Shown here in pieces: positions 1 to 17,417 of a stretch of DNA of 32,000 nucleotides (position 1 is the stretch's first letter; each line of letters starts with the position of its first letter). A program made the position numbers and the translations under genes. Under the pieces are notes generated by a model, which was not told where the DNA came from, ran no database searches, and was given only the letters and a program-made list of their open reading frames with translations. Location of the stretch: positions 1,071,594-1,103,593 of the forward strand of contig NZ_CP022339.1 of NCBI RefSeq assembly GCF_003351905.1. The letters are read 5' to 3'. The DNA is from Candidatus Saccharimonadota bacterium. Its GTDB lineage: Bacteria > Bacteroidota > Bacteroidia > Cytophagales > Amoebophilaceae.

Positions 1-911
1 CTGAACTGGAAACCAAGATTTTAAGCATGTTTTCTAGTGGTATGAGCTATAAGTCTATAGCCGCTCATATTGAAGAAATCTATGATCATAAAGTATCAGC
101 TGCTGAAATATCGGCTATTACAGATAGCTTATTGCCAGTAATAAATGAATGGCGTAACCGTCCTCTTCAATCGGTCTACCCCATAGTTTTTATGGATGGT
201 ATGTTTTTTAAGGTTAAAGAAGATGGGAAATGTGTAAGTAAATGTCTGTATACCTTATTAGGCATAGATCAAGAGGGTAAAAAAGAAGTGTTAGGCTTCT
301 ATTTATCTGAAAGTGAGGGAGCTAATTTCTGGTTAGGTGTACTCAACGAGCTTAAGGCAAGGGGTGTAGAAGATATCCTTATTGCCTGTGTTGATGGACT
401 AAAAAGCTTCCCTGCAGCCATTAATAACGCTTTTCCCAATGCACAGGTGCAGGTCTGTGTAGTACACCAGATACGCAATTCCATCAAGTATGTAGCTAGC
501 AAAGATGTAAAACGTTTTTTAACTGATTTAAAGCAAGTATATCAAGCTTCAAATAAGGAAGTTGCAGAACATTATCTATTGGAATTAGAAGAAAAATGGG
601 GAGAAAAGTATCCAATGGTTATCAAATCTTGGCAAAACAACTGGGAGCATTTGTCTGGTTACTTTAAATATTCAGATCCTGTCAGAAGGCTAATTTATAC
701 GACCAATCCAATAGAAAGCCTCCATAGACAAATTAGACAGTTTACCAAAACAAAAGGGGCATTTACCAGTGTCAATGCTTTGTATAAATCAGTATATTGC
801 GCTATCAAGAAGATGGAGGATAAATGGACTATGCCGCTCAGAAACTGGGCACTGACCATATCTCAGATAGACATCTTTTTTCCTGGAAGAGTCAAATCTG
901 AGTTGACGTGA
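1..911 (+). CDS. IS256-family (Mutator-type DDE) transposase, C-terminal part; the ORF is open to the window edge
   Basis: The translation (VFMDGMFFKVKEDG...ACVDGLKSFPAAI...VCVVHQIRNS) fits the IS256/Mutator transposase pattern. It is identical to residues of the 412-aa copy C protein. Confidence 0.9.
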   Translation, partial: ELETKILSMFSSGMSYKSIAAHIEEIYDHKVSAAEISAITDSLLPVINEWRNRPLQSVYPIVFMDGMFFKVKEDGKCVSKCLYTLLGIDQEGKKEVLGFYLSESEGANFWLGVLNELKARGVEDILIACVDGLKSFPAAINNAFPNAQVQVCVVHQIRNSIKYVASKDVKRFLTDLKQVYQASNKEVAEHYLLELEEKWGEKYPMVIKSWQNNWEHLSGYFKYSDPVRRLIYTTNPIESLHRQIRQFTKTKGAFTSVNALYKSVYCAIKKMEDKWTMPLRNWALTISQIDIFFPGRVKSELT

Positions 912-945
912 AGCCCGAAACTGACACAGTTAATTGAACACTTCC
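1..945 (+). mobile_element. IS256-family insertion sequence, copy A (5' part lies off-window)
   Basis: The encoded protein is identical over the shared 294 aa to copies B and C, and the first ~60 nt I compared by eye match copy B from 18832. It ends with the terminal repeat ...gaaactgacacagttaattgaacacttcc at 945. Confidence 0.9.
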
Positions 946-1108
946 TAACCTTAGAGACAATGGTTTTATAGATTAATTTTATCCTTTTTACCATAAATAT
1001 CTCACTATAAGTTTATAAAAATAGATAAAATATTTTCTTTCCCATTGGCTTGTTTTTCAGTTAAAAAAACCTTAAGAAGTAAGGGTATACCATTAAAATA
1101 CCATTAAA

Positions 1109-1348
1109 ATGATATTACTGGACATCACGGGCGCCCTTGAAGGTTGGATCACAAGCGGTTACCAGTTGTTAACTTTGGTAGCCAAATTACTAGGCGTAGT
1201 AGGCGCGTTTAGACTAGCCTATCTATACAATGTGGGTAGAGACAGAGGTATGATCTTTCATGAATTGTTACACTGGATAGGTGCCATTGTCTTCTTTTCA
1301 TCAGTTGGTCCTTTGTATGATATGATTGCCAATTTTTTTAAACTCTAA
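1109..1348 (+). CDS. Small membrane protein, TraE-like (DUF4134-type, pilin-like T4SS component)
   Basis: 79 aa with two hydrophobic helices. The motif LLGVVGAFRLAYLYNVGRD...WIGAIVFF resembles Bacteroides TraE. It is the first gene of the tra operon. Confidence 0.45.
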   Translation: MILLDITGALEGWITSGYQLLTLVAKLLGVVGAFRLAYLYNVGRDRGMIFHELLHWIGAIVFFSSVGPLYDMIANFFKL

Positions 1349-1371
1349 ATCAGATAAAAACATAATCTTCC

Positions 1372-1695
1372 ATGCAAAAATTAGTCAATAGCCCCTATTT
1401 AAAAGAGAAAGGCGTTTTAGGTCCGTTTTCTTTACCAGAAGCCTTAGTGGCGCTAGGCATTTGTTGCCTGACCTATATGGTCTCTTGTTACTGTGAAGAC
1501 TTTTTGCACTACAATCGTATGTGGACCATCTCTTTAACAAGCCTAATGATTATTATCTCTTTTTTGATAAAAATATTTCTAAAACATAGTAATCCTACCT
1601 GGCTATCAAGTCTTTTCGCTTATCATTTTTTGCATGTACCGATAGATATTTTTAGGATAAAATTTAAGATCAATGCTTTTCTCAAAAAAAGATAA
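1372..1695 (+). CDS. Small membrane protein, TraF-like (DUF4133-type)
   Basis: 107 aa with two TM helices. It sits directly upstream of traG and overlaps it by 23 nt, the position TraF occupies in CTn-type operons. Confidence 0.4.
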   Translation: MQKLVNSPYLKEKGVLGPFSLPEALVALGICCLTYMVSCYCEDFLHYNRMWTISLTSLMIIISFLIKIFLKHSNPTWLSSLFAYHFLHVPIDIFRIKFKINAFLKKR

Positions 1696-4126
1696 GAAAG
1701 AAGACCTACATAGAGTCTTACCTTTTGTAGATTTTCACAATGATATGGCCATATCTGCAGATGGGACTATTTCTGTACCCTTTAAAGCTACTTTAGCCTT
1801 TCAGGAACAGTATACCGAGCAACAGTATATAGATTGGACGCATATGCTATCTAATAGCATGAAAGAATTGCCCTGTAACAGCCTTGTGCAACAAGTAGAT
1901 ATATACTACCCAGATCAATGGCATAATCCATCTGTAGATAGTAACGAGCTTGATTTTTTTAAACAAAAACAATTCAGTCATACAGAAGGTTGCCCTATAC
2001 TCTGCCATGAATCCTATATCATACTTTCCTTTCCTGGATTGTATAAGGAATATACACCAATATCTACTTTTTATTCTAGAGATGAGACAAAAAGTTTTAT
2101 CAAAAACCCATTTATTAATTTAGAAAAGCGATTAATAATAGCCAAGAAAGATGCAGCCCAATTTCGTCAAAGTGTATCTACCCATCTTCCCTTAAACACT
2201 CTTACGTCTGGTGAATTTTCCCGTTTGGTACATAGATGTTTATCCTTAAACTTTAAAGATCCTGAAGGTACCTTATATGGTGGTTTATTAAAAGACAAAG
2301 CATATCTACAGTTGGCTGGTAGAAAAGCGCAAGTAATTTCTTTAATGGAAAGTGCTGCTGAGCCTAGTTATACCGTTCTGGATAGATTTGGCCACAATGG
2401 AGGAGTGTGCGCTCCTTTAACAGAAGGCCTTGGACGAAGCATAAATTTTCCGCATGTTATTTCTAGAGTCATTCGCATGATCGACTCTGAATCTTTCTTA
2501 AAAAACCATTTCAACGCATTTGCTTGGAGTGAAGCCACTAAACTCGATGAACGTAAGCTACAAAACATCAGACATATACGCAGTGAAATGGCTGATTTCG
2601 AACAAACACTTCGCGAGAGAAACGAACCAATTGTTTATTTATCTTTTTTAGTGATACCATTTGGTATGACTGATTTATCAACCCTAAATGAATACAGTTC
2701 TCAGGTACTAGCTGCTTTTTCTGGGATAGGCATGAGGGGTTACTTAGAAACCATTGATACGGCTAATCTATTTTTTGCCGCTTTACCAGGCAATGGCAAT
2801 CAGGTATATAGGCGTCTACCGATTCCCCTACTAACAGCGGTGGCCCATATGAATAGTACCACTCCCTTCACAGGTTATCAAGAAGGTGTGTTTCTAGCGA
2901 ATAGATATAGAGAACCGATCTATTTGAACCCATTTAATACCGATTTAGACAACCAAAATGCCTTTATTTTCGGCCCTTCTGGATCTGGTAAATCCTTCTT
3001 TAATGGCAAAATGATTAAAGATCGATTTCAAGCAGGCCATATAGTGATTGTCATTGACAGTGGTGGCACCTATCGCCATTTGTTCAGTGCGCTAGGAGGC
3101 AAATATATTGAACTCAGTTCAGAAAAATCTTTAGGCTTAAATCCTTTTTTATTCCCAGCTGATGAATCAGGCAGATACCTGCCAGATAGTAGTAAAATTA
3201 TATTTCTAGTTCAACTGATTGGCAAAATGTGGAAGGGAGATTTGAATGAAAATCCCATGAGTGAAGTAGAAAAATCTTTACTCTCTCAGTGGATTAGTGA
3301 TTATTATAGAGATTTACCAAAAGCGGTCATCCCTACTTTAACGGGCTTTTATGACTATTTACAAACATTGGTAGCAGCTAATGGACAAGCTATTCTTGAT
3401 CTTAAAAAGGAACAGTTGTTCCCTTTTCAAGAATTTTTTATTGTGTTAAAGCCATTTGCGAATGGTATCTACAAAAATCATTTTAATGCTTTAGAGCAAG
3501 ACTATCTATTAGACCATAGGTTGGTCTGTTTTGAGTTAGAAGCCATTAAACAGAATAGCAAACTTTATCCATTGGTAGTACAAATTCTATTTGAATTTGC
3601 TTTTGAGATGGTATCTAAACATCCAGATGCCATCAAGTTTATAGATATAGAAGAAGGTTGGACCACCTTAGATGATGCCTCTAGAGAGCATATAGAAGCT
3701 TTTTACCGAAAAGGCAGAAAAACCAAAACCTCTATTCGAATCATCACCCAAGACATCGGGGAAATCAAATCATCTAAGATCGCTAGTGCCATTAAAAACA
3801 ATGCAGCTACCTTTATCCTGTTATACAATGAAAAATCCTCCAGCAGAGAAGAAATAGGTACTTTCTTAGGTATGAATGCGTTAGACATGCAAAAGTATGC
3901 CAGTCTGCGTCGTAAAAACGGTCCAGGTGGTTTTAGGGAAATCTTTATTAAAGAGATGAGCCAGAGTCACGTGTGGCTATTAGAACCCTCTCTTTGGGAA
4001 CATGCCATGTTTACTTCTCATCCATCAGAAAGAAACCAAATCGCTTCATTTACTAAAAAACATGGAAATATAGAAGATGGCATTGCAGAATGGGTATACC
4101 ATACGAAACAAAAATATTATGTCTAG
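1673..4126 (+). CDS. traG: Conjugation system ATPase TraG (VirB4-family) of Bacteroidota type
   Basis: 817 aa with Walker A FGPSGSGKSFF followed by HIVIVIDSGGTYRHL. The size and N-terminal region are typical of Bacteroides/Flavobacterium conjugative-transposon TraG. Confidence 0.9.
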   Translation: MLFSKKDKKEDLHRVLPFVDFHNDMAISADGTISVPFKATLAFQEQYTEQQYIDWTHMLSNSMKELPCNSLVQQVDIYYPDQWHNPSVDSNELDFFKQKQFSHTEGCPILCHESYIILSFPGLYKEYTPISTFYSRDETKSFIKNPFINLEKRLIIAKKDAAQFRQSVSTHLPLNTLTSGEFSRLVHRCLSLNFKDPEGTLYGGLLKDKAYLQLAGRKAQVISLMESAAEPSYTVLDRFGHNGGVCAPLTEGLGRSINFPHVISRVIRMIDSESFLKNHFNAFAWSEATKLDERKLQNIRHIRSEMADFEQTLRERNEPIVYLSFLVIPFGMTDLSTLNEYSSQVLAAFSGIGMRGYLETIDTANLFFAALPGNGNQVYRRLPIPLLTAVAHMNSTTPFTGYQEGVFLANRYREPIYLNPFNTDLDNQNAFIFGPSGSGKSFFNGKMIKDRFQAGHIVIVIDSGGTYRHLFSALGGKYIELSSEKSLGLNPFLFPADESGRYLPDSSKIIFLVQLIGKMWKGDLNENPMSEVEKSLLSQWISDYYRDLPKAVIPTLTGFYDYLQTLVAANGQAILDLKKEQLFPFQEFFIVLKPFANGIYKNHFNALEQDYLLDHRLVCFELEAIKQNSKLYPLVVQILFEFAFEMVSKHPDAIKFIDIEEGWTTLDDASREHIEAFYRKGRKTKTSIRIITQDIGEIKSSKIASAIKNNAATFILLYNEKSSSREEIGTFLGMNALDMQKYASLRRKNGPGGFREIFIKEMSQSHVWLLEPSLWEHAMFTSHPSERNQIASFTKKHGNIEDGIAEWVYHTKQKYYV

Positions 4127-4922
4127 TCATTTTCAAGGTATTCTATCCTCATCAGCTAATCTAGCTGCACAAAACCTAATGGTGGATGTTACCATTACCA
4201 AGATGATTGGAGTAGCTAAGTTGTTACTATTGCCTTTCTTATTGATCCGTTTAATCGTCTACTATTTTCAGTATCATTTAAGTAGTGCTGAGTTATTAAA
4301 ATCATGTTATACCAGTCTGTTAACACTGACTGTTACCTTTATACTTCTTCAATTCTACTTGGATATTTTTCATATACTAGACAAGTTAACTGCTTTAATT
4401 ATGAAGGGGTTTGATTGGCATGATTTAATTAAACCTGATAGTTTAAAAGAATATCCTGAGATAGGTATATGGGAGTTGATTAAAAATTGCTTTTCGAATG
4501 TAACTACTAAGGTGTTAAAATCCATAGCTGGCATCATAGGTTTAACCACTACTATATTCCGTCATCAAGCGATCCTATTTACTTTACAGGTCGGTCCTTT
4601 GGCCATTTCCGCTAGCCTCTTACCAGGCAATTTTAGCGGAATAATTATTTATTGGCTCAATATGCTGATTTCCTTTTTAATGTGGGGGGTAACCATTGAT
4701 TTGCTAGACTATTCACTGATTTCTTTAGAGTTTAATAATGTAGATGGGATAGGTGCTGCCATAGCTACTTGCTTGATGTATGCTATGGTAGGTCCGCTTA
4801 CCTCCTTATATATAGGCAATACGATAGGGAACAGCCTTTTTGCAATAGGAGAAGCAAGGACGAGTCAGTTTATGACTTATGGAGTTAGTAGTTTACAAAA
4901 GTTGAGAAAACAAAATGAATAG
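4077..4922 (+). CDS. traJ: Polytopic membrane protein, TraJ-like (VirB6 analogue); the start may be ATG 4119
   Basis: About 6 predicted TM helices. It lies immediately after traG; the alternative ATG at 4119 overlaps the traG stop by 8 nt. It is shorter than canonical TraJ. Confidence 0.55.
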   Translation: MALQNGYTIRNKNIMSSHFQGILSSSANLAAQNLMVDVTITKMIGVAKLLLLPFLLIRLIVYYFQYHLSSAELLKSCYTSLLTLTVTFILLQFYLDIFHILDKLTALIMKGFDWHDLIKPDSLKEYPEIGIWELIKNCFSNVTTKVLKSIAGIIGLTTTIFRHQAILFTLQVGPLAISASLLPGNFSGIIIYWLNMLISFLMWGVTIDLLDYSLISLEFNNVDGIGAAIATCLMYAMVGPLTSLYIGNTIGNSLFAIGEARTSQFMTYGVSSLQKLRKQNE

Positions 4923-5005
4923 TGACTAGACAATACATTAATCCTTACTTCGTAAGGTCTGTGTGGGCAAGCTAATGGGAAAGAATACTATAAACACAAT
5001 ACAAT

Positions 5006-5668
5006 ATGTTAGATAATAAAGATTATCAGTCATCAACTGTTCAATCGATTCATAAGCTAAACAGCTATCATTACGGGAATATCATTAACCTACTACGATT
5101 TTTAGTTGTTTTTCTTTTGGTATCCTTAGGTGGTTTATCTGCTTTTTTAGGCTATTTGGTATTTAAACAGAACAGAAGTGATTTGGTCTATTTTGCTACC
5201 CTTGAAGGGACCCATGTGGGTATAAGAAAAGAGAATCCAACTAATAACAGCAGAGAATCGTTTGAAGTAGAAAATTTTTCCATGCGTTTTATACAAGATG
5301 GTTTTGCCCATAGCGAAAACAATTATCAGGAAAATATTGAAAGAGCCTTGACCGTCATGAATAATGCTTCTAGAGTTACCTTAAAAAAACTCTTTTCTGA
5401 TGATAGTTTGTTTCAAGTATACAAGGAGTCTAATGGCGTAACAACAGTTACTGTTAAACGCATAGTTACTGATACAGCATCTTATCCATACAAGGCAGAA
5501 GTCTACTTTCAAACAGATTTAAAGTTTTTAACGGGCCAAGGAAAAGTAAAAACCCATAGCTACCATCAAGGGATTGCATTAGAAATGCAACCAACGTCTA
5601 GATGTAGTAAAAATCCCTATGGCTTAATGATCACCGATCTAACCTTTTTAAATCATGAAGCACAGTAG
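5006..5668 (+). CDS. traK: Conjugative transposon protein TraK-like
   Basis: 220 aa with one N-terminal TM helix. The C-terminal region (SYPYKAEVYFQ...SKNPYGLMITDLTFL) resembles the TraK family pattern. Confidence 0.65.
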   Translation: MLDNKDYQSSTVQSIHKLNSYHYGNIINLLRFLVVFLLVSLGGLSAFLGYLVFKQNRSDLVYFATLEGTHVGIRKENPTNNSRESFEVENFSMRFIQDGFAHSENNYQENIERALTVMNNASRVTLKKLFSDDSLFQVYKESNGVTTVTVKRIVTDTASYPYKAEVYFQTDLKFLTGQGKVKTHSYHQGIALEMQPTSRCSKNPYGLMITDLTFLNHEAQ

Positions 5669-6455
5669 CCTGTTACTATTTTTGATCTTTTATTTTCCTG
5701 TTTTTGCATTGAATATTAAAGTATCTGACCAATATCCCACTTTACTCGAATTTAGTGGTACCATTGAGAAGATTTCTTTTGGTAATGGAGACCAAGAATA
5801 TGTCTCCAAAGAAGAAGGTAGGTTCTTAGAAGTAAAAGCCAAGCGTCCTGGGACCAGTAAGACTACCGTTACTGTTTTTTATCTAGTCAATGAAGGGAAA
5901 AAGAATGAAAAGATAGATGTCTTCTATGGAACCGTTAGTTATGATGCTGGGATACAACCAATGTATGATCTTACCCATCATAAAGTGAAACAAATAGAAG
6001 AACTAGAAAAGTGGGATACCGATGAACCATTAACTGAATCCTTAATAGAAGCTATAGAATACGTATCCCAGGATCAACCAAATATCAAACGTTTTCATCA
6101 AACCAAACAAAAAGTGAGTTGTTTTTTGAGCAATGCCATTAGCACAGGAGAAGAGATTGTTTTAAAATTTGTATTAAAAAATAGCTCTCCCTACAACTAT
6201 AAAGTAGGAAGCGTATACTTTTTAGGTAATAACAAAGACAAAACTGCTATTCCTATTAAACTCAAACCTAAGCGTATGGTAGTAGTCCCAGGAGAGATCG
6301 TACCGATGACTTTCGTTATTAAACATAAGGTAGAAAAATCAGGTATCGTCGTTCGTTTTGAAGAGAAAAAAGGACGTAGAGATTTAAGTTTGACCTTACC
6401 TAATAGATTGTTACTGAGTATACCATGTTTGGTTAAAGAATCTAAAGAAGTGTAG
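5655..6455 (+). CDS. traN: Secreted protein, TraN-like (DUF4138, VirB9 analogue)
   Basis: Signal peptide MKHSSLLLFLIFYFPVFA. The N-terminal block (YPTLLEFSGTIEKISFGNGD...LEVKAKRPGTSKTTVTVF) and C-terminal block (LKNSSPYNYKV...VVPGE...EKKGRRDLSL) match my recollection of TraN. Confidence 0.55.
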   Translation: MKHSSLLLFLIFYFPVFALNIKVSDQYPTLLEFSGTIEKISFGNGDQEYVSKEEGRFLEVKAKRPGTSKTTVTVFYLVNEGKKNEKIDVFYGTVSYDAGIQPMYDLTHHKVKQIEELEKWDTDEPLTESLIEAIEYVSQDQPNIKRFHQTKQKVSCFLSNAISTGEEIVLKFVLKNSSPYNYKVGSVYFLGNNKDKTAIPIKLKPKRMVVVPGEIVPMTFVIKHKVEKSGIVVRFEEKKGRRDLSLTLPNRLLLSIPCLVKESKEV

Positions 6456-6460
6456 TTCCT

Positions 6461-7336
6461 ATGGACAAGAAGCAATTAGGTTTTGGATTCGCTGGATTGT
6501 TGGTTATTGCTTGGGTGGTGCTCAGAGATGTTCGCAAAACAAAAAGTTGGTATAATTTTTTTGTGGCCCCTCCACCTAAACCTTGTAAGCTACTCGAAAA
6601 AGCAGAACCCTTGTCGATTACGAAAGAAACCAATCAAAGAATGAAGAATCGCTTTCAATCAGAGCAGGTACGCTGTTCTTTGTTTGAAGATATGGCTAAA
6701 AATATCAGTAAAGATGTATCAACAGTTGAACCAGAGTCTGCTGCATCAAAATCGGTTAAAGAAGCCGAACCAGTTACCATTAAACCTAAAAAGGTAATTC
6801 AAAAAGTTCAAAAGATAGTTTCTTCTCCAAAACAGGAAAAAAACTACTTTCCAGTAGCCTTTGAAAGAAAAGGGAGAAAAAGGAATATTAAGGTAAAAAA
6901 CAGCTTTGCTGCAGGCTATGTCTACGGCACACAGGAGCTCAAACATGGCAGAAGTATTAAAATACGTGTCAAAGAAGCTTTTGCTTACAAAGGTCAAGAA
7001 ATACCAAAAGGCGCATTTTTATATGGAATTGTTGCTTTTGGAAAGGAAAGAATTCTAGCTAAATTAGAAACAGCTGAATTTGGTAAAAATGTGATTTCAG
7101 TGGCTATTGGTTTGTATGACTCAGACTATATGATTGGATTATTGGTAGAGAATTTGCATCCTTTTATTGATCAGGCGCAAAACAAATTGCTCAGTAGAGC
7201 AGCTAGTAGTGGCAATAATTCTTGGATCAGGGAGATCAGCGGGGTGGTAGTAGATGGTATAAAATCTGCTAAAAATGAGCAAAAAATCACAATAGAAAAT
7301 AGAAGAAAGGTATTCCTTAAACCAATAGAAAAATGA
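6461..7336 (+). CDS. traM: TraM-like protein (VirB10 analogue), short form
   Basis: N-terminal TM helix. The C-terminal block (GRSIKIRVKEAF...IPKGAFLYGIVAFGKERILAKLETAEF...VAIGLYDSDYMIGL) resembles the TraM C-terminal domain. At 291 aa it is shorter than the roughly 400 aa or more I recall for canonical TraM. Confidence 0.6.
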   Translation: MDKKQLGFGFAGLLVIAWVVLRDVRKTKSWYNFFVAPPPKPCKLLEKAEPLSITKETNQRMKNRFQSEQVRCSLFEDMAKNISKDVSTVEPESAASKSVKEAEPVTIKPKKVIQKVQKIVSSPKQEKNYFPVAFERKGRKRNIKVKNSFAAGYVYGTQELKHGRSIKIRVKEAFAYKGQEIPKGAFLYGIVAFGKERILAKLETAEFGKNVISVAIGLYDSDYMIGLLVENLHPFIDQAQNKLLSRAASSGNNSWIREISGVVVDGIKSAKNEQKITIENRRKVFLKPIEK

Positions 7337-8247
7337 ATAAGTGTAAAAAATATGGTCTGGTCTCTTTATGCCTGTTCATTCCTATTACCTCTTCAGCAAG
7401 TATAGGATCTTCTATCAAATCAGGATTAAACAAAATCCTACCTAATGGATTAAAAAAGTGGATACCTGGTCTATCTCCAGAAGAAAAAACAGCTCAGTTA
7501 ATGGAAGAACAAGTAGGTACTTCTAATAACGTTCTAGCACAAATGAAAGATGCGGCTGATAGTATGAGAAAACTAAAAGAGCGTGTAGAACAAGCTAATT
7601 CTATTAAAAATCAAAGTAAATCATTATTTAAAGATCTCGCTGAAGCTAAATATGGTAAAGTAGCGCTAGGTATATCTGAGAAAATCAGTGGTATTAGTTT
7701 AAATCCTAGTGATTATATTCCTAGTTTAGATTGTACTAAAGATCTTAAAAGAAATTGTTCTTTTTCGTACTATAGAGAAAAAGCGCTATTAGGTAGAGTA
7801 GATGCTTTTACCAGTAGAAGTAGTAATTTCATGGGTACCAAACCTCCAAAAAGTTTAAACAGGCTTTGCTCAGATATTCAAATGGAATTGCGTCTATCAG
7901 ATCAAATTAAAATAGCTGCTAAAGAGGCCAATAACAGACTGATTCCAGTCTATAAAGAACAGATCAAAAATCTAGAGATTCAAAATAAAAAGATAGATAA
8001 AACTCTATCCAACCCTAATTTTTATAAAAATGATCCAGTAAAATACTTTCAACTAGAAAGCATTAAAAACAAAAATATCTTAGATATGGGAGAACTGGTA
8101 GAGCGGATCAATAGACTTCAAGTGGCATCGGAAGAGGTTTCTAAAAAAGATAAAGAAGCTATTGCAGAGTTATATAGTGCAAAGTTAAACAATGATCTAA
8201 TACAGCATATCGTCAAAAGTAAAATAAAAAGAAATAGTAATTTTTAA
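7333..8247 (+). CDS. Secreted coiled-coil protein of unknown function, translationally coupled to traM (ATGA overlap)
   Basis: Signal peptide (LCLFIPITSSAS). Long K/E-rich helical segments. I recognise no family. Confidence 0.5.
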   Translation: MNKCKKYGLVSLCLFIPITSSASIGSSIKSGLNKILPNGLKKWIPGLSPEEKTAQLMEEQVGTSNNVLAQMKDAADSMRKLKERVEQANSIKNQSKSLFKDLAEAKYGKVALGISEKISGISLNPSDYIPSLDCTKDLKRNCSFSYYREKALLGRVDAFTSRSSNFMGTKPPKSLNRLCSDIQMELRLSDQIKIAAKEANNRLIPVYKEQIKNLEIQNKKIDKTLSNPNFYKNDPVKYFQLESIKNKNILDMGELVERINRLQVASEEVSKKDKEAIAELYSAKLNNDLIQHIVKSKIKRNSNF

Positions 8248-8619
8248 ATGAAGATGAGAGAAAAATACAAACTAGAAGCAATCAAAGAATTTGCAGAAAA
8301 TCCTTTCATAAACTACAGGTCAGAGGTAGAATTGGATGAGTTTTTCATAGATGAACTGTCAAATAAATCTAAGAATATCATCAAGTATTTAATGTTCAAA
8401 CATTCATTTAAAGAAGAAAAATTCTTATTTAAGCTAAATGAGTTTAATAGGTTTATGATATATATCAATATGGAATATCCCTGTGATGGTATAGTAGAAC
8501 TATGCGCTAAAAAGGTATTAGCTAAAACCAAAGATCCAGATCTATATTGGGTGAATAATGATTTCTTTAGAACTGGAATCTTTCAACCAAAATACATAGA
8601 AGATGATGGTTGTAAGTAA
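8248..8619 (+). CDS. Hypothetical protein, last gene of the tra operon
   Basis: 123-aa ORF whose ATG directly follows the upstream TAA. I recognise no motif. Confidence 0.4.
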   Translation: MKMREKYKLEAIKEFAENPFINYRSEVELDEFFIDELSNKSKNIIKYLMFKHSFKEEKFLFKLNEFNRFMIYINMEYPCDGIVELCAKKVLAKTKDPDLYWVNNDFFRTGIFQPKYIEDDGCK

Positions 8620-8625
8620 AGATGC

Positions 8626-9617
8626 CTAGACAAGTTCCTGGATACGAGATGGAGACAAACCAGTAAGAGCAATAATATCCTCTATAGGGTAGCCACGCAA
8701 AATCATAGATTTGGCGATAGAAAAGGCTTTCTCAGCTTCTCCTTCTAGTTTTCCCTCTAGCTTGCCTTTTTCTTGCCCTATTCGGATACCTTCTTGTCTC
8801 CCTTTTTTAATACCTTTTTTCTCTCCTTCTTGCCTTAATTTTTCAGCTACTGACATGGCGATTTCCTTTAATTTTGGGTTAGATTTTTTAATCGTTTCTA
8901 ACAAATCTGGCTGGTCATCCACCTGTAAAATATACAAAAAAGCTTGATCAGCATATCCAATATAATCTTTTTCTAGGAGATCTACAATTAATCTCATATG
9001 ATCAGTAAACCACTGATGAAAAGAACGATAAATTCCTTGTTTAAGTACCATGGCTGCAAAAGCAGCCTTTTTATAGCTAAGCAGTTCATCTTCAGATGTA
9101 CTATATAGATCAACCAGATGAAAACGGTCAAACATACAAGACTTAGCTAGTTCAGGATCCGAGAACATAGATAATAAACTATTTGAACCCTTATATGGTT
9201 TATTGCCGTTATATATACAGTTATTTAGGATAACTGGAAGAGACACATTTCCATTCTCTTTTAAATGTTGGCGTATTAGTTGAACGTTGTATTCTAGGAA
9301 CCTTAGTGGCATATATGGATCTTCTGTAGACTGGTGTTCGGTAAGTACATATAAGTACCCTTCTTTCCCATTTATACTGGTTTTGAATACTAAATCAGAT
9401 TCTCCTCTTCTACCCACTGGATCCACAAAGCTCTTATTAGTCAATTCTAAATTTTCTTGATCTATTTTGATAAATAGATCGGAAGGCAGATTGGCAGATA
9501 GAAAATCTAGCATTGCTTCCTTGCTTCCTTATTGCAAAAAGTGTTCTTAAAGACCGTATCATGAGGCTTATCCGATCCTTCTTTTTTATCCTTTCCCTTG
9601 TTTTTTTTCTCACTCAT
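8626..9617 (-). pseudogene. Rpn/YhgA-like recombination-promoting nuclease (PD-(D/E)XK, Transposase_31 family), frameshifted by an 8-bp tandem duplication
   Basis: The 295-aa ORF (8626..9513) has the GESDLVF...YVLTEHQSTEDP core and a C-terminal charged repeat. An upstream ORF from ATG 9617 encodes MSEKKNKGKDKKEGSDKPHDTVFKNTFCNKEA, the family's HD..FK..F N-terminus. It is out of frame because tgcttcct is duplicated at 9514-9521 and 9522-9529. Confidence 0.8.
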
Positions 9618-9850
9618 GTGATCAATACATTACGAAAAATAAATGGCATTAAAAATATAAACTCTCCTAATAGTAATTAGAAAAAATAAAGCACTATGCT
9701 TGATCTAATAAAGATTCTATATATCAGATCCATATAATACAATATTACGTATAATTACTCCTATATGGTAGGCTATTTTTATCTGATTTTATCATGCCCT
9801 ATCTGTAAAATTAAAAATAGAAAACAAAATAAATAACGTTAGGACTCTTG

Positions 9851-9906
9851 TATTACTAATATAGTATATATTTTATATATACAAAAGATATACTATATTA
9901 GTAATA
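9851..9906. repeat. 56-bp AT-rich imperfect palindrome (two internal mismatches)
   Basis: attactaatatagtatat (9852-9869) is the exact reverse complement of atatactatattagtaat (9888-9905). Pairing continues through the spacer except at 9870/9887 and 9875/9882. Confidence 0.9.
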
Positions 9907-9994
9907 TGTAATTGATTCGATGTTAGGTATCTATTGAATGGTTGGATATCTATAAAAGATTATAAGTTTTAATAGTAAGAAAGTAGACTTTACA

Positions 9995-10022
9995 TATATC
10001 TTTTATATATATAAAAGATATA
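9995..10022. promoter_or_regulatory. 28-bp perfect palindrome 15 bp upstream of parA; putative operator or centromere-like site
   Basis: tatatcttttatat/atataaaagatata is self-complementary. Segment 9995-10028 also repeats 9865-9898 as a direct repeat (32/34 identical). Confidence 0.55.
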
Positions 10023-10036
10023 CTATATATTATTGT

Positions 10037-10582
10037 ATGCAAATTTTAGTGGCAAATATAAAAGGTGGGTGTGGAAAAAGCACATTAGTGTCTGCACTAG
10101 CAGATTTATTAGACGCTGATATTATTGATCATGATAACCAAGGCACAATACGCGTAAGCTCGTCCTTTACTGGTTTACGTGTCCCAGTAACCTATGAAAA
10201 AATAACAAAGAAAATCGTTCTTCACGATACACCACCTTATAATACAGGTAACTTGAAGAGCTTAATACAAGAGGCAGATTTAATACTGATTCCATGTAAA
10301 CTTATGTACCCAGATTTACTTGCATTAAGAGCGCTTTCGGATAAACTAAAGAAACTTAACATGACACAAAAAGGTGTAATTGTTTTTAATGAAATTCGTA
10401 AACCACATAATAATACTTATAAAGAAGTTAAAGCGCTTTATGAATCTAATTATTCAGAAATAAAAAAAGCGAAAACAGAGCTTTCTAATTTAATTAGCTT
10501 TAGTAGAGTACTATCTGAACCGATTACTGGTAAGGCATTAGAACAGATTAAATCATTAATTAGTGAATTAAATATATACTAA
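10037..10582 (+). CDS. parA: ParA/Soj-family partition ATPase (small, type Ib-like)
   Basis: Deviant Walker A at the N-terminus (ANIKGGCGKSTLV). At 181 aa it is typical of small plasmid ParA/ParF proteins. Confidence 0.8.
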   Translation: MQILVANIKGGCGKSTLVSALADLLDADIIDHDNQGTIRVSSSFTGLRVPVTYEKITKKIVLHDTPPYNTGNLKSLIQEADLILIPCKLMYPDLLALRALSDKLKKLNMTQKGVIVFNEIRKPHNNTYKEVKALYESNYSEIKKAKTELSNLISFSRVLSEPITGKALEQIKSLISELNIY

Positions 10583-10637
10583 AGATATATTTAATTAAAA
10601 TACCATTGCATTAGATATAATCTATCTATTTTTATAT

Positions 10638-10889
10638 ATGAGCTCAAATAACCCATTTCAAAATATAAATCAAAAACAGGCTTCTATTTCATTGCAAGAG
10701 CATTGTGAACAAGCTATAGTACGGAAAAAAATAGGAAGACCACTTAGACCTAACATGGGCAAATATCTTATAAAAATGGATAAAGGATTACATGCTAAAT
10801 TATCTAAATATGCAGAAGAATTAGGGATTAATAATTCATTTATCATTTCTAAAGCATTAAAAGAATTTTTCTCAAAACATTGTATTTAG
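10638..10889 (+). CDS. Ribbon-helix-helix (CopG/ParG-like) DNA-binding protein, likely ParA partner
   Basis: The C-terminal KYLIKMDKGLHAKLSKYAEELGINNSFIISKALKEFF fits a beta-strand/helix/helix RHH fold preceded by an unstructured tail. It lies directly after parA. Its stop codon overlaps the first G of an orphan Tn3-type IR. Confidence 0.55.
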   Translation: MSSNNPFQNINQKQASISLQEHCEQAIVRKKIGRPLRPNMGKYLIKMDKGLHAKLSKYAEELGINNSFIISKALKEFFSKHCI

Positions 10890-10926: not shown

Positions 10927-10975
10927 AGTATAGTTTCCCGAAAAAATTGGGCAAAAAAAACAATAACTTCTCTAG

Positions 10976-11213
10976 TTCGCTTTCAATATAAAAAAACGTC
11001 TTAAAGCTTTAGAAGCTAAAATGGCTCAAGATGGGCTTGTGCTGACTGAATCGCAGCTAGCAGCCCTAGAAAAACGTAGAAACGAACAAGAAGCCTATGG
11101 AGAAATAGATACAGAACACCCTGGTTACTTAGGTTGTCAAGATACCTATTATGTGGGTAACTTTAAAGGTATAGGTAAAGTGTATACTCAAGTGTTTATA
11201 GACAGTTATTCTA
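10976..11213 (+). pseudogene. IS481-family transposase, middle fragment (N-terminal HTH region missing, 3' part displaced by the Tn3 insertion)
   Basis: The translation ...GEIDTEHPGYLGCQDTYYVGNFKGIGKVYTQVFIDSYSR is the start of an rve/DDE core typical of IS481. The frame is open from 10976. The remainder of the tracked ORF (to 11287) reads into the Tn3 IR. Confidence 0.8.
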
Positions 11214-11251
11214 GGGGTCGCCTTGGATATGGGAAATTATTGTACGTTAAG
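11214..11251 (+). repeat. Tn3-family IR (tnpA-proximal)
   Basis: ggggtcgccttggatatgggaaattattgtacgttaag. The tnpA stop codon (11237-11239) lies inside it, as in other Tn3-family members. Confidence 0.95.
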
Positions 11252-14230: not shown

Positions 14231-14397
14231 ATAGTTTGCATTAATAATTATTTTGTAGATTAATTTTCATTCAAATATTTGTCTCATAAGGGTATACCTC
14301 AATGAAATAGCAAAGATGTTATCCTATTCCATTAATGAAATAACTTATATGCGATAGATTCAATGACATAACCTAAATACGATAAATTCATGAGAAT
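14231..14397. promoter_or_regulatory. Putative res site and divergent promoter region between tnpA and tnpR
   Basis: The position is canonical for res. The motif T(C/T)AATGA(A/C)ATA recurs at 14299-14309, 14332-14342 and 14360-14370. An inverted partial copy sits near 14265. Confidence 0.4.
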
Positions 14398-15478
14398 ATG
14401 TTCATCAGAGCTTATTTGAGAGCTTCAACAGAAGATCAGTTTGTAGATCGAGCACAAGAAATGCTCGAGCAGTTTGTTCAGGAGAGAGGACACAAAATCG
14501 CTAGCTATTACCGAGAAAATATCAGTGGAACAAAATTGGATAGACCAGAATTAGGAAGATTACTCATGGATAGTCACCGGAATGATATCTTACTGGTCGA
14601 ACAAATAGATCGGCTGACCCGTCTGAGCAATAGTGATTGGGTAATACTAAAAAAAAAGATTGAACACCATGAACTGAAAATTGTGAGTCTGGATATACCA
14701 ACTTCATGGCAGGCTTTGTCTGACAAAGAAACATCACAAAACGATCCACTCACCTTTCGCACCAAAATCATGCTTTGATTTTAGTTAAAATATCTTATAT
14801 TAGTTGGTTAAAGGTTTGTATGGTTCATAGCTCATTAAGCTAGCTTTTTAAAGTTGAACAAAGGAAAAATGATAGCATCATAATTACTAAAAAAAACGTT
14901 TATGAATGACTATCAATATTATATTTTTTATTTGTTCATTTAAATAATAGCTTATTAAGCACTTTATAAAGACCAAATCCACTATTCCATAATGGATGGC
15001 TGAAATGGTATCGACTAACTTAATGGGAAGTTCATTCCTATTACAAACTAAATCTAGAGATAGAGTTTATAGAAAAAATTCAAATCTATCTCATGATATA
15101 AATGCTTGCTGAAAACAATATTTAGAAATGTGCTGATAATCAGTAATAAATAATTATTAAAGTCTATATTTCTGGTGCGGAATGTGAGATCCAGTAACAC
15201 GTACTGTGATTTCCGCCATCAATAATATGCTCATGGATCTAATGGCCGCAATGTCGTATAAGGATTGGCTGAGCCGTCAGCAACGACAGAAACAAGGAAT
15301 TGAAAGAGCACATGAACAAGGTAAATATCGGGGAAAGCAGCCTGATCATGAGAGACACCAGAAAGTAGTCTACTATCGAAATGTGAAAAAACTAAGTATC
15401 TATGAAACCGCACAAGCTACCGGGTACAGCGCTTCGCAGGTATGCCGTATTCAACGATTGTACACTTTAAACAATTAA
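14398..15478 (+). pseudogene. tnpR: Serine recombinase (resolvase TnpR) split by a 438-bp insertion
   Basis: The N-terminal catalytic part (MFIRAYLRASTEDQ...LLVEQIDRLTR) ends at 14778 after reading into the insert. The C-terminal part (ISAINNMLMDLMAAM...HTH) resumes at 15188 in the same codon phase. Removing 14749-15193 gives a 211-aa ORF. Confidence 0.85.
14750..15187. mobile_element. MITE-like non-autonomous element inserted in tnpR
   Basis: Terminal inverted repeats tcacctttcgcaccaaaa (14750-14767) and the reverse complement of 15170-15187, tcacattccgcaccagaa, match at 15/18. Flanking direct repeat gatcca(c/g) at 14743-14749 and 15188-15194. The interior is AT-rich with no tracked ORF. 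Confidence 0.7.
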
Positions 15479-15611
15479 AAAAGTAATGCTAAGCACTTTT
15501 AGTAGATTGCTAGAAAATGGGGAAATTAATATCGAAAAAGTGTTGCTAAGCAGGTATATTTATACAATAACCTGGAAGAAAAGGAAGAACATCTTTAGTA
15601 CAGAAAACAGC

Positions 15612-15649
15612 CTTAACGTACAATAATTCCCTATATCCAAGGCGACCCC
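15612..15649 (-). repeat. Tn3-family IR (tnpR-proximal)
   Basis: Its reverse complement is ggggtcgccttggatatagggaattattgtacgttaag, a 36/38 match to the left IR. Confidence 0.95.
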
Positions 15650-15654
15650 TTCTA

Positions 15655-17346: not shown

Positions 17347-17417
17347 TGCTTAAATTTAAATTTCAACATAAATAACGTGATACATATAAAATGTACAAGA
17401 TACTACCAATAAAACAG

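What the first reader, a model, noticed from the sequence alone, without database searches (positions are those of the whole stretch)
1109..8619. Stripped-down Bacteroidota-type T4SS operon without relaxase or coupling protein, and with an apparent K-N-M gene order
Nine ORFs are packed with overlaps or zero spacing: a 23-nt traF-like/traG overlap, ATGA at 7333, and TAA-ATG at 8245-8250. That indicates a maintained, co-translated operon. Only E/F-like, G, J, K, N-like and M-like components are recognisable. traG abuts traJ with no traH/traI, and I see no TraL, TraO, TraQ, relaxase, T4CP or oriT candidate anywhere in the 32 kb. By my domain reading, the TraN-like gene precedes the TraM-like gene, whereas CTnDOT-type operons run K-L-M-N. 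TraJ and TraM are also much shorter than canonical. An intact but minimal mating-pair-formation set in a decaying, IS-ridden context suggests either a recently orphaned conjugation system or one repurposed for another role, such as protein translocation or adhesion.
Basis: partly seen in the sequence, partly recalled or inferred. Interest (0 to 1): 0.65.

Follow-up and report, generated by a model that had tools for sequence, protein, structure and literature searches.

The report
IS-truncated Cardinium type IV secretion operon
This is an intact second chromosomal copy of the channel-building genes of a little-known, divergent conjugation (type IV secretion) system carried by Cardinium insect symbionts; an insertion sequence has cut it off from its DNA-processing partner genes, so its sparse look is largely explained rather than a new kind of machine.

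Summary
Nine tightly packed, intact ORFs (1109-8619) encode VirB2/TraE-like, VirB3-like (by position only), VirB4/TraG, VirB6/TraJ-like, TraK/VirB8, TraN/VirB9-like and TraM/VirB10-like proteins, plus two unassigned proteins. No relaxase or coupling protein lies in the 32 kb.

The "minimal" gene set and the K-N-M order are not local decay. Every Amoebophilaceae relative examined has the same order, and so does a Hymenobacter (free-living Cytophagales) plasmid. On Cardinium plasmids pCher and p_B the operon is directly preceded by MobV relaxase, VirD4, an ankyrin protein, a TraO-like protein and a large exported protein.

In the window, homology to those plasmids begins at base 946, immediately after an IS256-family copy and 31 nt before the stop codon of that large upstream gene.

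The window most likely comes from the Cardinium cSfur chromosome. Published gene tables list a second, fuller copy there with the only VirD4. The window copy shows strong purifying selection (lineage-specific dN/dS about 0.08).

Verdict: an IS-truncated duplicate of a divergent Bacteroidota T4SS that the Cardinium papers I read do not describe. Moderate interest.

The parts
1..945 (+). 3' part of an IS256/Mutator-family insertion sequence, cut by the window edge. Its right terminal inverted repeat ends at 945.
   Evidence: Pfam Transposase_mut 9e-80. It is 100% identical to 18832-19776 and to the reverse complement of 20959-21903. The terminal repeats read GGAAGTGTTC.../...GAACACTTCC.
946..976 (+). 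Last 31 nt, including the TAA stop, of the large exported-protein gene that precedes the operon on Cardinium plasmids. The rest of that gene is absent from the window.
   Evidence: blastn homology to plasmid p_B starts exactly at window 946 = L001 19844, and the gene ends at L001 19874. tblastn with the 826/858-aa proteins finds nothing else in the window.
977..1108 (+). Conserved leader upstream of the first gene. It contains a palindrome, CCTTAAGAAGTAAGG, at 1070-1084. It may be an operator or promoter region (inferred).
   Evidence: Alignment of five relatives. CCCATTAGCTT and CCTTAcGnAGTAAGG are conserved in all five, although the flanks are divergent.
1109..1348 (+). VirB2/TraE-like pilin candidate (79 aa).
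   Evidence: DUF4134 8.3e-5, 23.2 bits against a 26.5 cut-off. Orthologues in L004 and L006 hit TrbC/VirB2 at 7e-6 and 5e-5. The protein is hydrophobic. dN/dS 0.08.
1372..1695 (+). VirB3/TraF-like candidate (107 aa), assigned by position and topology only.
   Evidence: No profile hit. It has two hydrophobic segments and overlaps the VirB4 gene by 23 nt. It is conserved in all relatives at this position. hhalign to the Fibrella small ORF before TraG gives only 52%.
1673..4126 (+). VirB4-family ATPase (the TraG of Bacteroidota nomenclature), 817 aa.
   Evidence: P-loop_TraG 4.8e-59; TraC-F-type 7.9e-57; Bac_Flav_CT_G 1.7e-51, which is 175 bits and below the 261.55 cut-off. Walker A is GPSGSGKS. 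Walker B is the lineage-wide variant IDIEEGW.
4119..4922 (+). VirB6/TraJ-like polytopic membrane protein (267 aa; 281 aa from the ATG at 4077).
   Evidence: There is no direct profile hit. hhalign gives 96.7% (E 4e-10) to the Hymenobacter protein that PGAP names 'TraG N-terminal domain-containing', and 94.5% to the Fibrella protein at the same position. Two relatives give weak TIGR03782 TraJ hits of 0.003-0.004. There are at least four hydrophobic segments. The AlphaFold model is all-helical but has pLDDT 50.
5006..5668 (+). TraK/VirB8-like bitopic protein (220 aa).
   Evidence: TIGR03781 6.4e-5; Pfam VirB8 5.6e-4. hhalign 98.8% to the annotated Hymenobacter TraK. It has a single N-terminal hydrophobic segment.
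5655..6455 (+). TraN/VirB9-like secreted protein (266 aa).
   Evidence: Direct hits are weak (DUF4138 0.026; TIGR03780 0.025). Syntenic orthologues pass the DUF4138 gathering score (37.2 and 36.4 against 31.1). hhalign gives 95.5%, E 1.4e-8, to those orthologues and 97.5% to the Hymenobacter DUF4138 protein. The best PDB sequence hit of the family profile is TrwF/VirB9, 7o3j_B, E 0.018.
6461..7336 (+). TraM-like (VirB10-analogous) bitopic protein (291 aa).
   Evidence: PF12508 3.3e-24, 86.6 bits, above the cut-off; TIGR03779 5.3e-16. It has an N-terminal hydrophobic segment.
7333..8247 (+). Conserved helical protein of about 300 aa with a signal-peptide-like N terminus (read by eye). It always follows TraM. 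Its role is unassigned.
   Evidence: It is syntenic in L001, L002, L004, L006, L008 and L015. Only 24 clusters match at E<=1e-3 among 1.84 billion representatives. There is no Pfam, NCBIfam or PDB assignment. hhalign to the Hymenobacter gene after TraM is weak: 36%, E 4e-4, over 230 columns.
8248..8619 (+). Small plasmid-family protein (123 aa). It is probably not a T4SS part.
   Evidence: It has no family hit. Paralogues lie next to the VapE/toprim primase genes on p_B and pCher. On pCher an ankyrin gene occupies this position.
8626..10889 (.). Remainder of the plasmid-derived block: an Rpn/YhgA-like nuclease gene (8626-9513, minus strand), ParA (10037-10582) and a ribbon-helix-helix protein (10638-10889).
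   Evidence: Pfam. There is 88% nucleotide identity to p_B, colinear up to about window 10980. dN/dS 0.08-0.09.
11213..15650 (-). Tn3-family element lying just beyond the right end of the plasmid-derived block (homology to p_B ends at about 10980). tnpA is intact and the resolvase is in two pieces.
   Evidence: 47-nt inverted repeats at 11213-11259 and 15604-15650. DDE_Tnp_Tn3 4.8e-147; Resolvase N-terminal fragment.

Best explanation
The region is the mating-pair-formation (channel-building) module of a divergent Bacteroidota T4SS that is typical of Amoebophilaceae plasmids and related to T4SSs on Cytophagales plasmids.

Origin. It sits here as a roughly 10-kb plasmid-derived block (946 to about 10980) in the chromosome of a Cardinium symbiont, almost certainly strain cSfur of the planthopper Sogatella furcifera. 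Its gene content and its VirB8-VirB9-VirB10-like order (TraK-TraN-TraM) are normal for this lineage. On plasmids the operon continues upstream into a large exported protein, a TraO-like protein, an ankyrin protein, the VirD4 coupling protein and a MobV relaxase. Here an IS256-family element, or a rearrangement through it, has cut that part away 31 nt before the end of the large gene. A fuller copy with the genome's only VirD4 is listed elsewhere on the same chromosome.

How it would work (inferred from family knowledge). The VirB4 ATPase, together with the VirB3-, VirB6- and VirB8-like proteins, forms the inner-membrane platform that assembles the small pilin. The TraN- and TraM-like proteins form the envelope-spanning core. 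The substrate would have to be delivered by the VirD4 encoded at the other locus. That substrate would be MobV-nicked plasmid DNA, or possibly proteins.

What is shown and what is inferred.
- Shown: the identity of five of the parts, the conserved order, the IS breakpoint, gene intactness and purifying selection.
- Inferred: that the copy is still expressed and assembled, and that it can cooperate in trans with the other locus.
For: Component identity.

Conserved order. tblastn and ORF maps show the same order in the Cardinium loci L001, L002 and L003 (L003 preserves only the first six genes). The more distant L004 and L006 have the same order. The annotated Hymenobacter plasmid also has K-N-M, whereas a Bacteroides plasmid has TraM before DUF4138.

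Upstream module on plasmids.

Breakpoint. Homology to p_B starts at 946, exactly at the IS end. The other IS copies have no target-site duplications, which points to recombination through IS copies.

Source genome. The window's own protein sits on a contig of 1,103,593 bp. That equals the published cSfur genome size. The published cluster lists match the window's gene order: CE557_832-839, then 841 Rpn, 842 ParA, 844 TnpA and 845/846 resolvase pieces. They also list CE557_046-057, which includes VirD4.

Selection.
- All nine ORFs are full length with no internal stops, and dN/dS against p_B is 0.08-0.20.
- On the window's private branch there are 45 nonsynonymous and 157 synonymous changes (about 0.075). 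This is no higher than on the p_B plasmid branch (L001) or on the L015 contig branch, about 0.10 each.
- A chromosomal copy in the Dermatophagoides farinae Cardinium is fragmented, which shows what decay looks like in this genus.

Expression in a relative. The pCher orthologues are transcribed in cEper1: TraM 543, VirB4 395, VirD4 371 and TraK 159 normalised counts.
Against: - I could not read the sequence left of the window or the other cSfur locus.
- My database searches for the VirD4 and the large upstream protein showed no hit from a 1,103,593-bp contig. This conflicts with the published tables, so one of the two sources is incomplete or masked. I cannot confirm that CE557_057 or the MobV homologues are intact.
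- The TraO-like gene and the large exported protein, which belong to the same gene string in every complete relative, are absent here. This copy alone may therefore not assemble a complete outer-membrane complex.
- Low dN/dS is also expected if the truncation is simply very recent. The three IS copies are identical apart from a 1-nt indel, which is compatible with that.
- There are no expression data for this organism.
Confidence: 0.7

Rival explanations
1. Dead relic. The copy lost its function when the IS event removed the TraO-like gene, the large exported protein, VirD4 and the relaxase. It looks intact only because the event is too recent for mutations to have accumulated.
For: - The three IS256-family copies are identical apart from a 1-nt indel, so the IS is recently active.
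- The upstream module is absent from the window.
- A chromosomal copy in another Cardinium has decayed into fragments, so chromosomal copies of this operon are not always maintained.
- A second copy in the same genome makes this one redundant.
Against: - There is no excess of nonsynonymous change on the window's own branch: 45 N to 157 S, about 0.075.
- There is not one frameshift or stop in 7.5 kb, while nearby genes in the window carry lesions: sufB has an in-frame stop, the resolvase is split and one IS copy is frameshifted.
- The conserved leader upstream of the first gene is retained.
- The paper reports only 89-96% protein identity between the two cSfur copies, so they are not a fresh duplicate.
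Confidence: 0.3
2. Repurposed machine. The operon has become a protein-translocation or adhesion device that works without a relaxase, for example to deliver ankyrin or RING effectors to the host cell.
For: - Ankyrin-repeat genes are embedded in or next to the operon in relatives: between the TraJ-like and TraK genes on pCher, in cEhis1 and in the D. farinae chromosomal copy, and between VirD4 and the TraO-like gene.
- The operon is under purifying selection in obligate intracellular bacteria.
- The pCher orthologues are expressed in the insect.
Against: - No ankyrin gene lies in this copy; the gap between the TraJ-like and TraK genes is 83 nt.
- Known effector-translocating T4SSs still need a VirD4-type coupling protein, which is missing here.
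- In every complete relative the operon is linked to a MobV relaxase and a primase, which is a conjugation signature.
- There is no experimental evidence.
Confidence: 0.1
3. Assembly artefact. The block belongs to a plasmid, or to the other chromosomal copy's surroundings, and was joined to this chromosomal position through collapsed identical IS copies.
For: - The block 946-18429 is flanked by IS256-family copies in direct orientation whose shared sequence is 100% identical.
- It carries plasmid partition genes.
- Its GC content is low, as in Cardinium plasmids.
- The genome was assembled from host sequencing data and 'no plasmid was detected'.
Against: - A simple circular plasmid or cointegrate would carry the rest of the large upstream gene next to the second IS copy, and it does not.
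- Integrated copies of this module in chromosomes are documented independently, in the Cardinium of Nabis limbatus and in the D. farinae Cardinium.
- This cannot be tested without the reads.
Confidence: 0.08
4. One reading: a canonical CTnDOT-type operon that lost traH/I/L/O/Q and locally rearranged M and N in this decaying genome.
For: The genes named are indeed not detectable in the window, and the surroundings are degraded.
Against: - The same content and order are found in all relatives, including plasmid copies and a free-living Hymenobacter plasmid.
- The ATPase is only about 23% identical to Bacteroides TraG, against about 30% to the Fibrella and Hymenobacter plasmid ATPases.
Confidence: 0.03

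Closest known systems
T4SS modules of Cardinium plasmids pCher (NC_018606.1, cEper1) and p_B (CP101108.1, D. farinae Cardinium)
   Same: The same eight genes occur in the same order and with the same overlaps. Nucleotide identity to p_B is 88% over all 7.5 kb, and 77% to pCher over the first 3 kb. The downstream Rpn-ParA-RHH genes are shared with p_B.
   Different: The plasmids carry MobV relaxase, VirD4, an ankyrin protein, a TraO-like protein and an 826-858-aa exported protein directly upstream. In the window these are replaced by an IS256-family copy. pCher also has ankyrin genes inside and after the operon. The window copy is chromosomal.
T4SS of Cytophagales plasmids, e.g. Hymenobacter sp. 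5414T-23 plasmid NZ_CP095057.1 and Fibrella sp. plasmid CP155474.1
   Same: The order is small / small / VirB4 / VirB6-like / TraK / DUF4138 (TraN) / TraM / a roughly 300-aa protein. The ATPases are about 30% identical. hhalign gives 96-99% probability for the VirB6-like, TraK and TraN proteins against the Hymenobacter plasmid, and 91-98% against Fibrella.
   Different: The free-living versions are larger (TraM 439-459 aa, VirB6-like 358-386 aa). Hymenobacter has an extra gene between the VirB6-like gene and TraK, and places the TraO-like gene downstream rather than upstream.
CTnDOT/Bacteroides-type conjugation system (MPF_B; TIGRFAM Bac_Flav_CT_G/J/K/M/N)
   Same: The phylum is the same. TraG, TraK, TraM and TraN homology is detectable, there is a TraE-like small pilin, and there is no VirB11.
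   Different: All TIGRFAM scores are far below their curated cut-offs. The order is K-N-M, whereas the Bacteroides plasmid examined has K-M-N. No TraH/I/L/P/Q are detectable. ATPase identity is about 23%. The partner relaxase in relatives is MobV.
VirB/VirD4 system of Agrobacterium and R388 (MPF_T)
   Same: The order of the core genes is the same, VirB8-, VirB9-, then VirB10-like, after a VirB2-B3-B4 start. This order for MPF_T is from my own knowledge. The TraN-family profile's best PDB hit is R388 TrwF/VirB9. MOB-suite types pCher as MPF_T.
   Different: No VirB1, B5, B7 or B11 is recognisable. Sequence similarity is marginal (VirB8 5.6e-4, CagX 0.035, TrwF 0.018).
tra clusters and RAGE elements of Rickettsia and Orientia (conjugation genes kept in obligate intracellular bacteria)
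   Same: Conjugative T4SS genes are multiplied, integrated and partly degraded in reduced, IS-rich genomes of arthropod symbionts (background from the papers read).
   Different: Those are F-type/Ti-type proteobacterial systems unrelated in sequence. The resemblance is ecological, not a matter of homology.

Membership tests
Type IV secretion system, VirB-like core | VirB4-family ATPase with nucleotide-binding motifs | tested here: met
   P-loop_TraG 4.8e-59; TraC-F 7.9e-57; VirB4_CagE 4.3e-35. Walker A is intact. Walker B is the lineage-conserved variant DIEE.
Type IV secretion system, VirB-like core | VirB8-, VirB9- and VirB10-like envelope proteins | tested here: met
   - TraK/VirB8: 6e-5 and 6e-4; hhalign 98.8%.
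- TraN/DUF4138: via orthologues above the gathering score, plus hhalign 95.5-97.5%.
- TraM: PF12508, 86.6 bits, above the cut-off.
 The equivalence of TraM to VirB10 rests on published family comparisons that I recall; I did not test it here. A PDB search with the TraM profile found nothing.
Type IV secretion system, VirB-like core | VirB2-like pilin and VirB3-like protein upstream of VirB4 | tested here: inconclusive
   DUF4134 scores 23.2 bits against a 26.5 cut-off. Orthologues hit TrbC/VirB2 at 7e-6, below the cut-off. The second ORF has only position, size and two hydrophobic segments in its favour.
Type IV secretion system, VirB-like core | VirB6-like polytopic inner-membrane protein | tested here: inconclusive
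   hhalign gives 96.7% to a protein PGAP calls 'TraG N-terminal domain-containing', but Pfam does not reproduce that name. TraJ hits in relatives are weak, 0.003-0.004. The protein is multi-pass hydrophobic. The AlphaFold model is of low confidence.
Self-transmissible conjugative element (plasmid or ICE) | Relaxase, VirD4-type coupling protein and the mating-pair-formation genes together in one locus | tested here: not met
   No MobV, VirD4 or primase homologue in the 32 kb (tblastn; Pfam). Homology to the plasmid module begins only at base 946. The published tables place VirD4 at CE557_057 and MobV-like genes at CE557_190 and 604, far from this copy.
Self-transmissible conjugative element (plasmid or ICE) | Origin of transfer (oriT) | not tested
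   No oriT is defined for this plasmid family. The conserved palindrome at 1070-1084 lies upstream of the pilin gene, not next to a relaxase, and is more likely regulatory.
CTnDOT/Bacteroides-type MPF_B | Proteins reach the curated Bac_Flav_CT_G/J/K/M/N cut-offs | tested here: not met
   G 175.1 against 261.55; K 22.6 against 152.45; M 58.8 against 172.45; N 13.7 against 164.1; J no hit.
CTnDOT/Bacteroides-type MPF_B | Gene order ...J-K-(L)-M-N with TraH/I/L/O/P/Q accessory genes | tested here: not met
   The window order is J-like / K / N / M. A Bacteroides thetaiotaomicron plasmid shows TraM before DUF4138. No accessory families were detected.
Amoebophilaceae/Cytophagales plasmid-type T4SS | Order of small / small / VirB4 / VirB6-like / TraK / TraN / TraM / roughly 300-aa protein | tested here: met
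   Colinear with L001, L002, L004, L006 and L015, and with L003 for its first six genes; L014 matches but has one extra gene between the VirB6-like gene and TraK.
Amoebophilaceae/Cytophagales plasmid-type T4SS | TraO-like gene and large exported protein in the same gene string, next to VirD4 | tested here: not met
   Present in L001, L002, L003, L004 (partly) and L015. Absent from the window, where only the last 31 nt of the large gene remain.

The most novel reading that the evidence does not exclude
Cardinium and its relatives possess a working T4SS that the Cardinium literature I read has not described. This chromosomal copy would be kept by selection to operate with the single VirD4 encoded elsewhere. 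The system would move plasmids and islands between co-infecting symbionts, or deliver the ankyrin/RING proteins encoded inside the operon of related strains into host cells. It would then become a candidate route for host manipulation and for horizontal spread of traits such as the biotin operon lying 15 kb away.
Probability: 0.15. Interest if true: 0.75.

Novelty: new variant of a known kind. Interest (0 to 1): 0.4.

Why it matters
What the literature says. Reviews and genome papers on Cardinium call its plasmids 'cryptic'. They list only Sec, the phage-derived T6SS-iv, a T1SS and partial gliding/T9SS genes as secretion systems. The operon's genes are tabulated as 'protein of unknown function'.

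What this analysis adds. These genes form a complete, conserved, selected T4SS with MobV and VirD4 partners, and in cEper1 the orthologues are transcribed. This explains what a large part of these plasmids is for. It offers a mechanism for gene flow among intracellular symbionts. It also points to a natural DNA-delivery route for organisms that cannot yet be transformed.

A wider point. A Cytophagales-wide T4SS subtype with VirB-like K-N-M order falls below every curated Bac_Flav_CT (TIGRFAM) cut-off tested here. Standard detectors may therefore under-count conjugative elements in this part of the Bacteroidota.

For the window itself the message is more modest. The odd, 'minimal' look of this locus is the result of an IS cut in a duplicated module.

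Tried and rejected
- Fetching the sequence beyond the left edge. An exact 30-mer from the junction found nothing in metagenome contigs.
- Using contig length as a tag to ask whether the source chromosome encodes the large upstream protein or VirD4. Neither showed up, but the published cSfur tables list both. I therefore discard this negative as masked or incomplete and do not use it.
- Testing whether the 14.5-kb Logan contig L015 is the other cSfur copy. Its identities to the window (82-90%) do not match the published 89-96% between the two copies, so it is another strain.
- Structure route. The TraJ-like model had pLDDT 50. The single-sequence model of the 304-aa protein had pLDDT 58, and Foldseek returned only coiled-coil noise with no hit at E<=0.001.
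- Assigning the 304-aa and 123-aa proteins. Pfam, NCBIfam, PHROGs, PDB profile search and a 1.84-billion-protein scan gave no family.
- A simple plasmid-cointegrate model for the IS-flanked block. Rejected because the rest of the large upstream gene is not next to the second IS copy, and no target-site duplications are present.
- Rfam found no RNA family in the window.
- I did not run the sigma-70 promoter scan, because Bacteroidota promoters are outside its scope.

Full report

Yes. Nine same-strand ORFs fill 1109-8619. The junctions are as described: a 23-nt overlap at 1673-1695, ATGA at 7333-7336 and TAA-ATG at 8245-8250. There is also a 14-nt overlap at 5655-5668, and the ATPase gene overlaps the next gene by 8 nt, or by 50 nt with the longer start.

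Profile searches gave the following:
- 1673-4126 is a VirB4-family ATPase (P-loop_TraG 4.8e-59, TraC-F-type 7.9e-57, Bac_Flav_CT_G 1.7e-51).
- 6461-7336 matches TraM (PF12508, 86.6 bits, above the cut-off).
- 5006-5668 matches TraK/VirB8 (6.4e-5 and 5.6e-4).
- 1109-1348 matches DUF4134/TraE just below the cut-off.
- 5655-6455 matches TraN only weakly (0.025).
- The other four ORFs have no hit.

No relaxase, coupling protein or primase is in the 32 kb. This was tested by tblastn with the proteins of related plasmids and by Pfam scans of the other window ORFs of 80 aa or more that I submitted.

**2. Where the window comes from**

Megablast finds 88% identity over the whole 7.5 kb to plasmid p_B of the Cardinium symbiont of Dermatophagoides farinae, and 77% over the first 3 kb to pCher of Cardinium cEper1. 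The window's own TraJ-like protein is recorded on a contig of 1,103,593 bp. That is exactly the published size of the single-contig genome of Cardinium cSfur from the planthopper Sogatella furcifera, in which no plasmid was detected.

The supplementary gene-cluster tables of that paper match the window's order gene for gene. They list CE557_832-839, then 841 (Rpn/YjiP-like), 842 (ParA), 843 (transposase), 844 (Tn3 TnpA) and 845/846 (resolvase pieces). I therefore treat the window as cSfur chromosome.

**3. Identity of the uncertain genes**

TraN-like gene. Syntenic orthologues of 5655-6455 in the Cardinium of Nabis limbatus and in an Amoebophilaceae MAG pass the DUF4138/TraN gathering score over the full model (37.2 and 36.4 bits against 31.1). 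The window family aligns to them at 95.5% probability, E 1.4e-8, over 229 columns. It aligns to the annotated DUF4138 protein of a Hymenobacter plasmid at 97.5%. The best PDB hit of the family profile, although weak, is R388 TrwF/VirB9 (E 0.018). The N-before-M reading is therefore correct.

TraJ-like gene. It has no direct hit. It aligns at 96.7% to the Hymenobacter protein in the VirB6 position and at 94.5% to the Fibrella one. Two relatives give weak TraJ hits.

Pilin candidate. Its orthologues hit TrbC/VirB2 at 7e-6 and 5e-5.

Topology. Hydrophobicity profiles fit the roles: multi-pass for the VirB6-like protein, a single N-terminal hydrophobic segment for the TraK-like and TraM-like proteins, and a hydrophobic N terminus on the TraN-like protein. 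A signal-peptide-like N terminus on the 304-aa protein is my reading of the sequence; the hydrophobicity scan itself found no segment above threshold there.

Unassigned proteins. The 304-aa protein follows TraM in every relative but belongs to no described family. The 123-aa protein has paralogues next to plasmid primase genes and is probably not part of the machine.

**4. The 'minimal' set and the K-N-M order are lineage traits**

The same order is present on pCher and p_B, and in cEhis1 as far as that contig preserves the operon (its first six genes). It is also present in the Nabis Cardinium chromosome, an Amoebophilaceae MAG and a Logan contig.

Outside the family, the nearest ATPases (about 30% identity) are on Cytophagales plasmids. 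The Hymenobacter plasmid is annotated small / small / VirB4 / VirB6-like / hypothetical / TraK / DUF4138 / TraM / hypothetical / TraO-like. A Bacteroides thetaiotaomicron plasmid has TraM before DUF4138, and its ATPase is only about 23% identical.

All Bac_Flav_CT TIGRFAM scores are far below their curated cut-offs. This is a distinct, compact subtype and not a degraded CTnDOT operon.

**5. Why relaxase and coupling protein are missing here**

On pCher and p_B the operon is directly preceded by an 826-858-aa exported protein, a 164-173-aa protein, an ankyrin protein, VirD4 and a MobV relaxase, with a VapE/toprim primase beyond. I find the 164-173-aa protein to be TraO-like (PF10626 2.6e-4; hhalign 72.5% to the Hymenobacter TraO-like protein).

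In the window, homology to p_B starts at base 946. That is the first base after the terminal repeat of an IS256-family copy, and it lies 31 nt before the stop codon of the large gene. Homology then runs colinearly through the operon, Rpn, ParA and a ribbon-helix-helix gene to about 10980. Just beyond that point lies a Tn3-family element (11213-15650) that sits inside an IS481-like remnant.

The other two IS256 copies lack target-site duplications, so recombination through IS copies has occurred in this region.

The published cSfur tables list a second operon copy (CE557_046-053). It is followed by homologues of the large protein (054), the TraO-like protein (055), an ankyrin/RING protein (056) and the genome's only VirD4 (057). 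MobV-like homologues are at CE557_190 and 604. The window copy is therefore a truncated duplicate, and the replicon as a whole is not devoid of these functions.

My own attempt to see these genes through the protein database failed. I do not rely on that negative.

**6. Integrity and selection**

All nine ORFs have the same length as their p_B orthologues and no internal stops. Pairwise dN/dS is 0.08-0.20 at dS 0.23-0.66.

With a third Cardinium contig (L015) as a third reference sequence, single-nucleotide codon changes unique to each lineage could be counted. The window's own branch carries 45 nonsynonymous and 157 synonymous single-nucleotide codon changes, about 0.075. The p_B and L015 branches show about 0.10 each (Fisher p = 0.32 for window against p_B). 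There is thus no sign of relaxed constraint.

By contrast, the chromosomal copy in the D. farinae Cardinium is broken into many pieces. In this window sufB carries an in-frame stop.

The leader upstream of the first gene is retained and contains a palindrome conserved in five relatives. In cEper1 the orthologous genes are transcribed at levels similar to many chromosomal genes.

**7. Mechanism**

The best-supported reading is a T4SS channel module.
- The VirB4 ATPase with the VirB3-, VirB6- and VirB8-like proteins would build the inner-membrane platform and assemble the small pilin.
- The TraN- and TraM-like proteins would form the envelope-spanning core.
- The 304-aa protein, which has a signal-peptide-like N terminus, would be an accessory.

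This copy lacks the TraO-like and large exported proteins and any coupling protein. It cannot move a substrate on its own. If it is active, it must cooperate with the other locus. These steps are inferred from what is known of the protein families; none is shown for Cardinium.

The main rival is that the copy is already functionless and simply too young to show decay. Repurposing for effector delivery is suggested only by ankyrin genes embedded in the operon of relatives, and these are absent here. An assembly artefact at identical IS copies cannot be excluded without the reads.

**8. Novelty**

The genome and its synteny with plasmids are published, but the genes are listed there as unknown. 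A 2025 review still calls Cardinium plasmids cryptic and names no T4SS. The papers on cEper1, cBtQ1 and the D. farinae strain mention at most a 'traG' coupling-protein homologue. Automated pipelines do label TraM, and MOB-suite types pCher as conjugative.

The system is therefore a new variant of a known kind. The peculiarity of this particular locus is explained by an IS cut.

Noticed in passing
window 23424-28820: A complete biotin operon lies 15 kb from the plasmid-derived block. It runs bioA-bioD-bioC-bioH-like-bioF on the minus strand, with bioB divergent on the plus strand. It is bracketed by IS256-, IS3- and IS66-type elements. The cSfur paper attributes this operon to horizontal transfer.
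   Followed up: partly
window 28914-30362: sufB is interrupted by a single in-frame stop codon at 30015-30017 (...[18 protein letters not shown]...). This is either a nonsense mutation in an Fe-S assembly gene or a sequencing error.
   Followed up: partly
window 1-945, 18430-19776, 20959-22306: There are three copies of one IS256-family element. Copy 18430-19776 has a 1-nt deletion that shortens the transposase ORF to 358 aa, against 412 aa. Neither complete copy has a target-site duplication, which suggests IS-mediated rearrangements.
   Followed up: yes
window 11021-16172: This looks like a nested insertion. A Tn3-family element (47-nt inverted repeats at 11213-11259 and 15604-15650, intact 997-aa TnpA, resolvase in two pieces) appears to sit inside an IS481-like element. 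The N- and C-terminal fragments of that element lie at 11021-11287 and 15822-16172.
   Followed up: partly
window 1070-1084: The palindrome CCTTAAGAAGTAAGG and an upstream CCCATTGGCTT motif are conserved upstream of the pilin gene in five Cardinium relatives, although the flanking sequence is divergent. It may be an operator or promoter element of the T4SS operon.
   Followed up: partly
window 16405-18113 (minus strand): A SUKH/SMI1-KNR4-like gene (231 aa) sits next to an unassigned 313-aa gene, which may form an immunity-toxin pair. The published tables list CE557_848/849, homologues of pCher genes CAHE_p0043/44, a few genes downstream of the operon, and a SMI1-KNR4 gene (CE557_041) near the other T4SS copy.
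   Followed up: no
L002 23703-24599, L003 13758-14657, L009 10914-11501: In pCher, in cEhis1 and in the D. farinae chromosomal copy, an ankyrin-repeat gene is inserted between the TraJ-like and TraK genes. Further ankyrin/RING genes lie next to VirD4. The window copy has none.
   Followed up: partly
L009 7554-14454 (CP101107.1, D. farinae Cardinium chromosome): A chromosomal copy of the same operon, lying between rpoC and a GTPase gene, is heavily fragmented. The ATPase is in four pieces, the TraN-like and TraM genes are split, and the last gene is truncated. It is a useful contrast to the intact window copy.
   Followed up: yes
window 3641-3661 (ATPase residues 657-663): All Amoebophilaceae and Roseivirga copies of the VirB4 ATPase have IDIEEGW where Hymenobacter, Fibrella and Bacteroides have (L/M/I)DEA(W/L). 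This is a lineage-wide Asp-to-Glu change at the Walker B position.
   Followed up: no
window 8248-8619; L001 8917-9192 and 38112-38396; L002 7418-7741: The 123-aa protein at the end of the operon has paralogues (33-41% identity) directly beside the VapE/toprim primase genes of both Cardinium plasmids. This hints at a role in replication or regulation rather than in secretion.
   Followed up: no
The protein database showed no VirD4 or large-upstream-protein homologue from a 1,103,593-bp contig, although the published cSfur tables list both. Absence in these searches should not be taken as absence in the source genome.
   Followed up: partly
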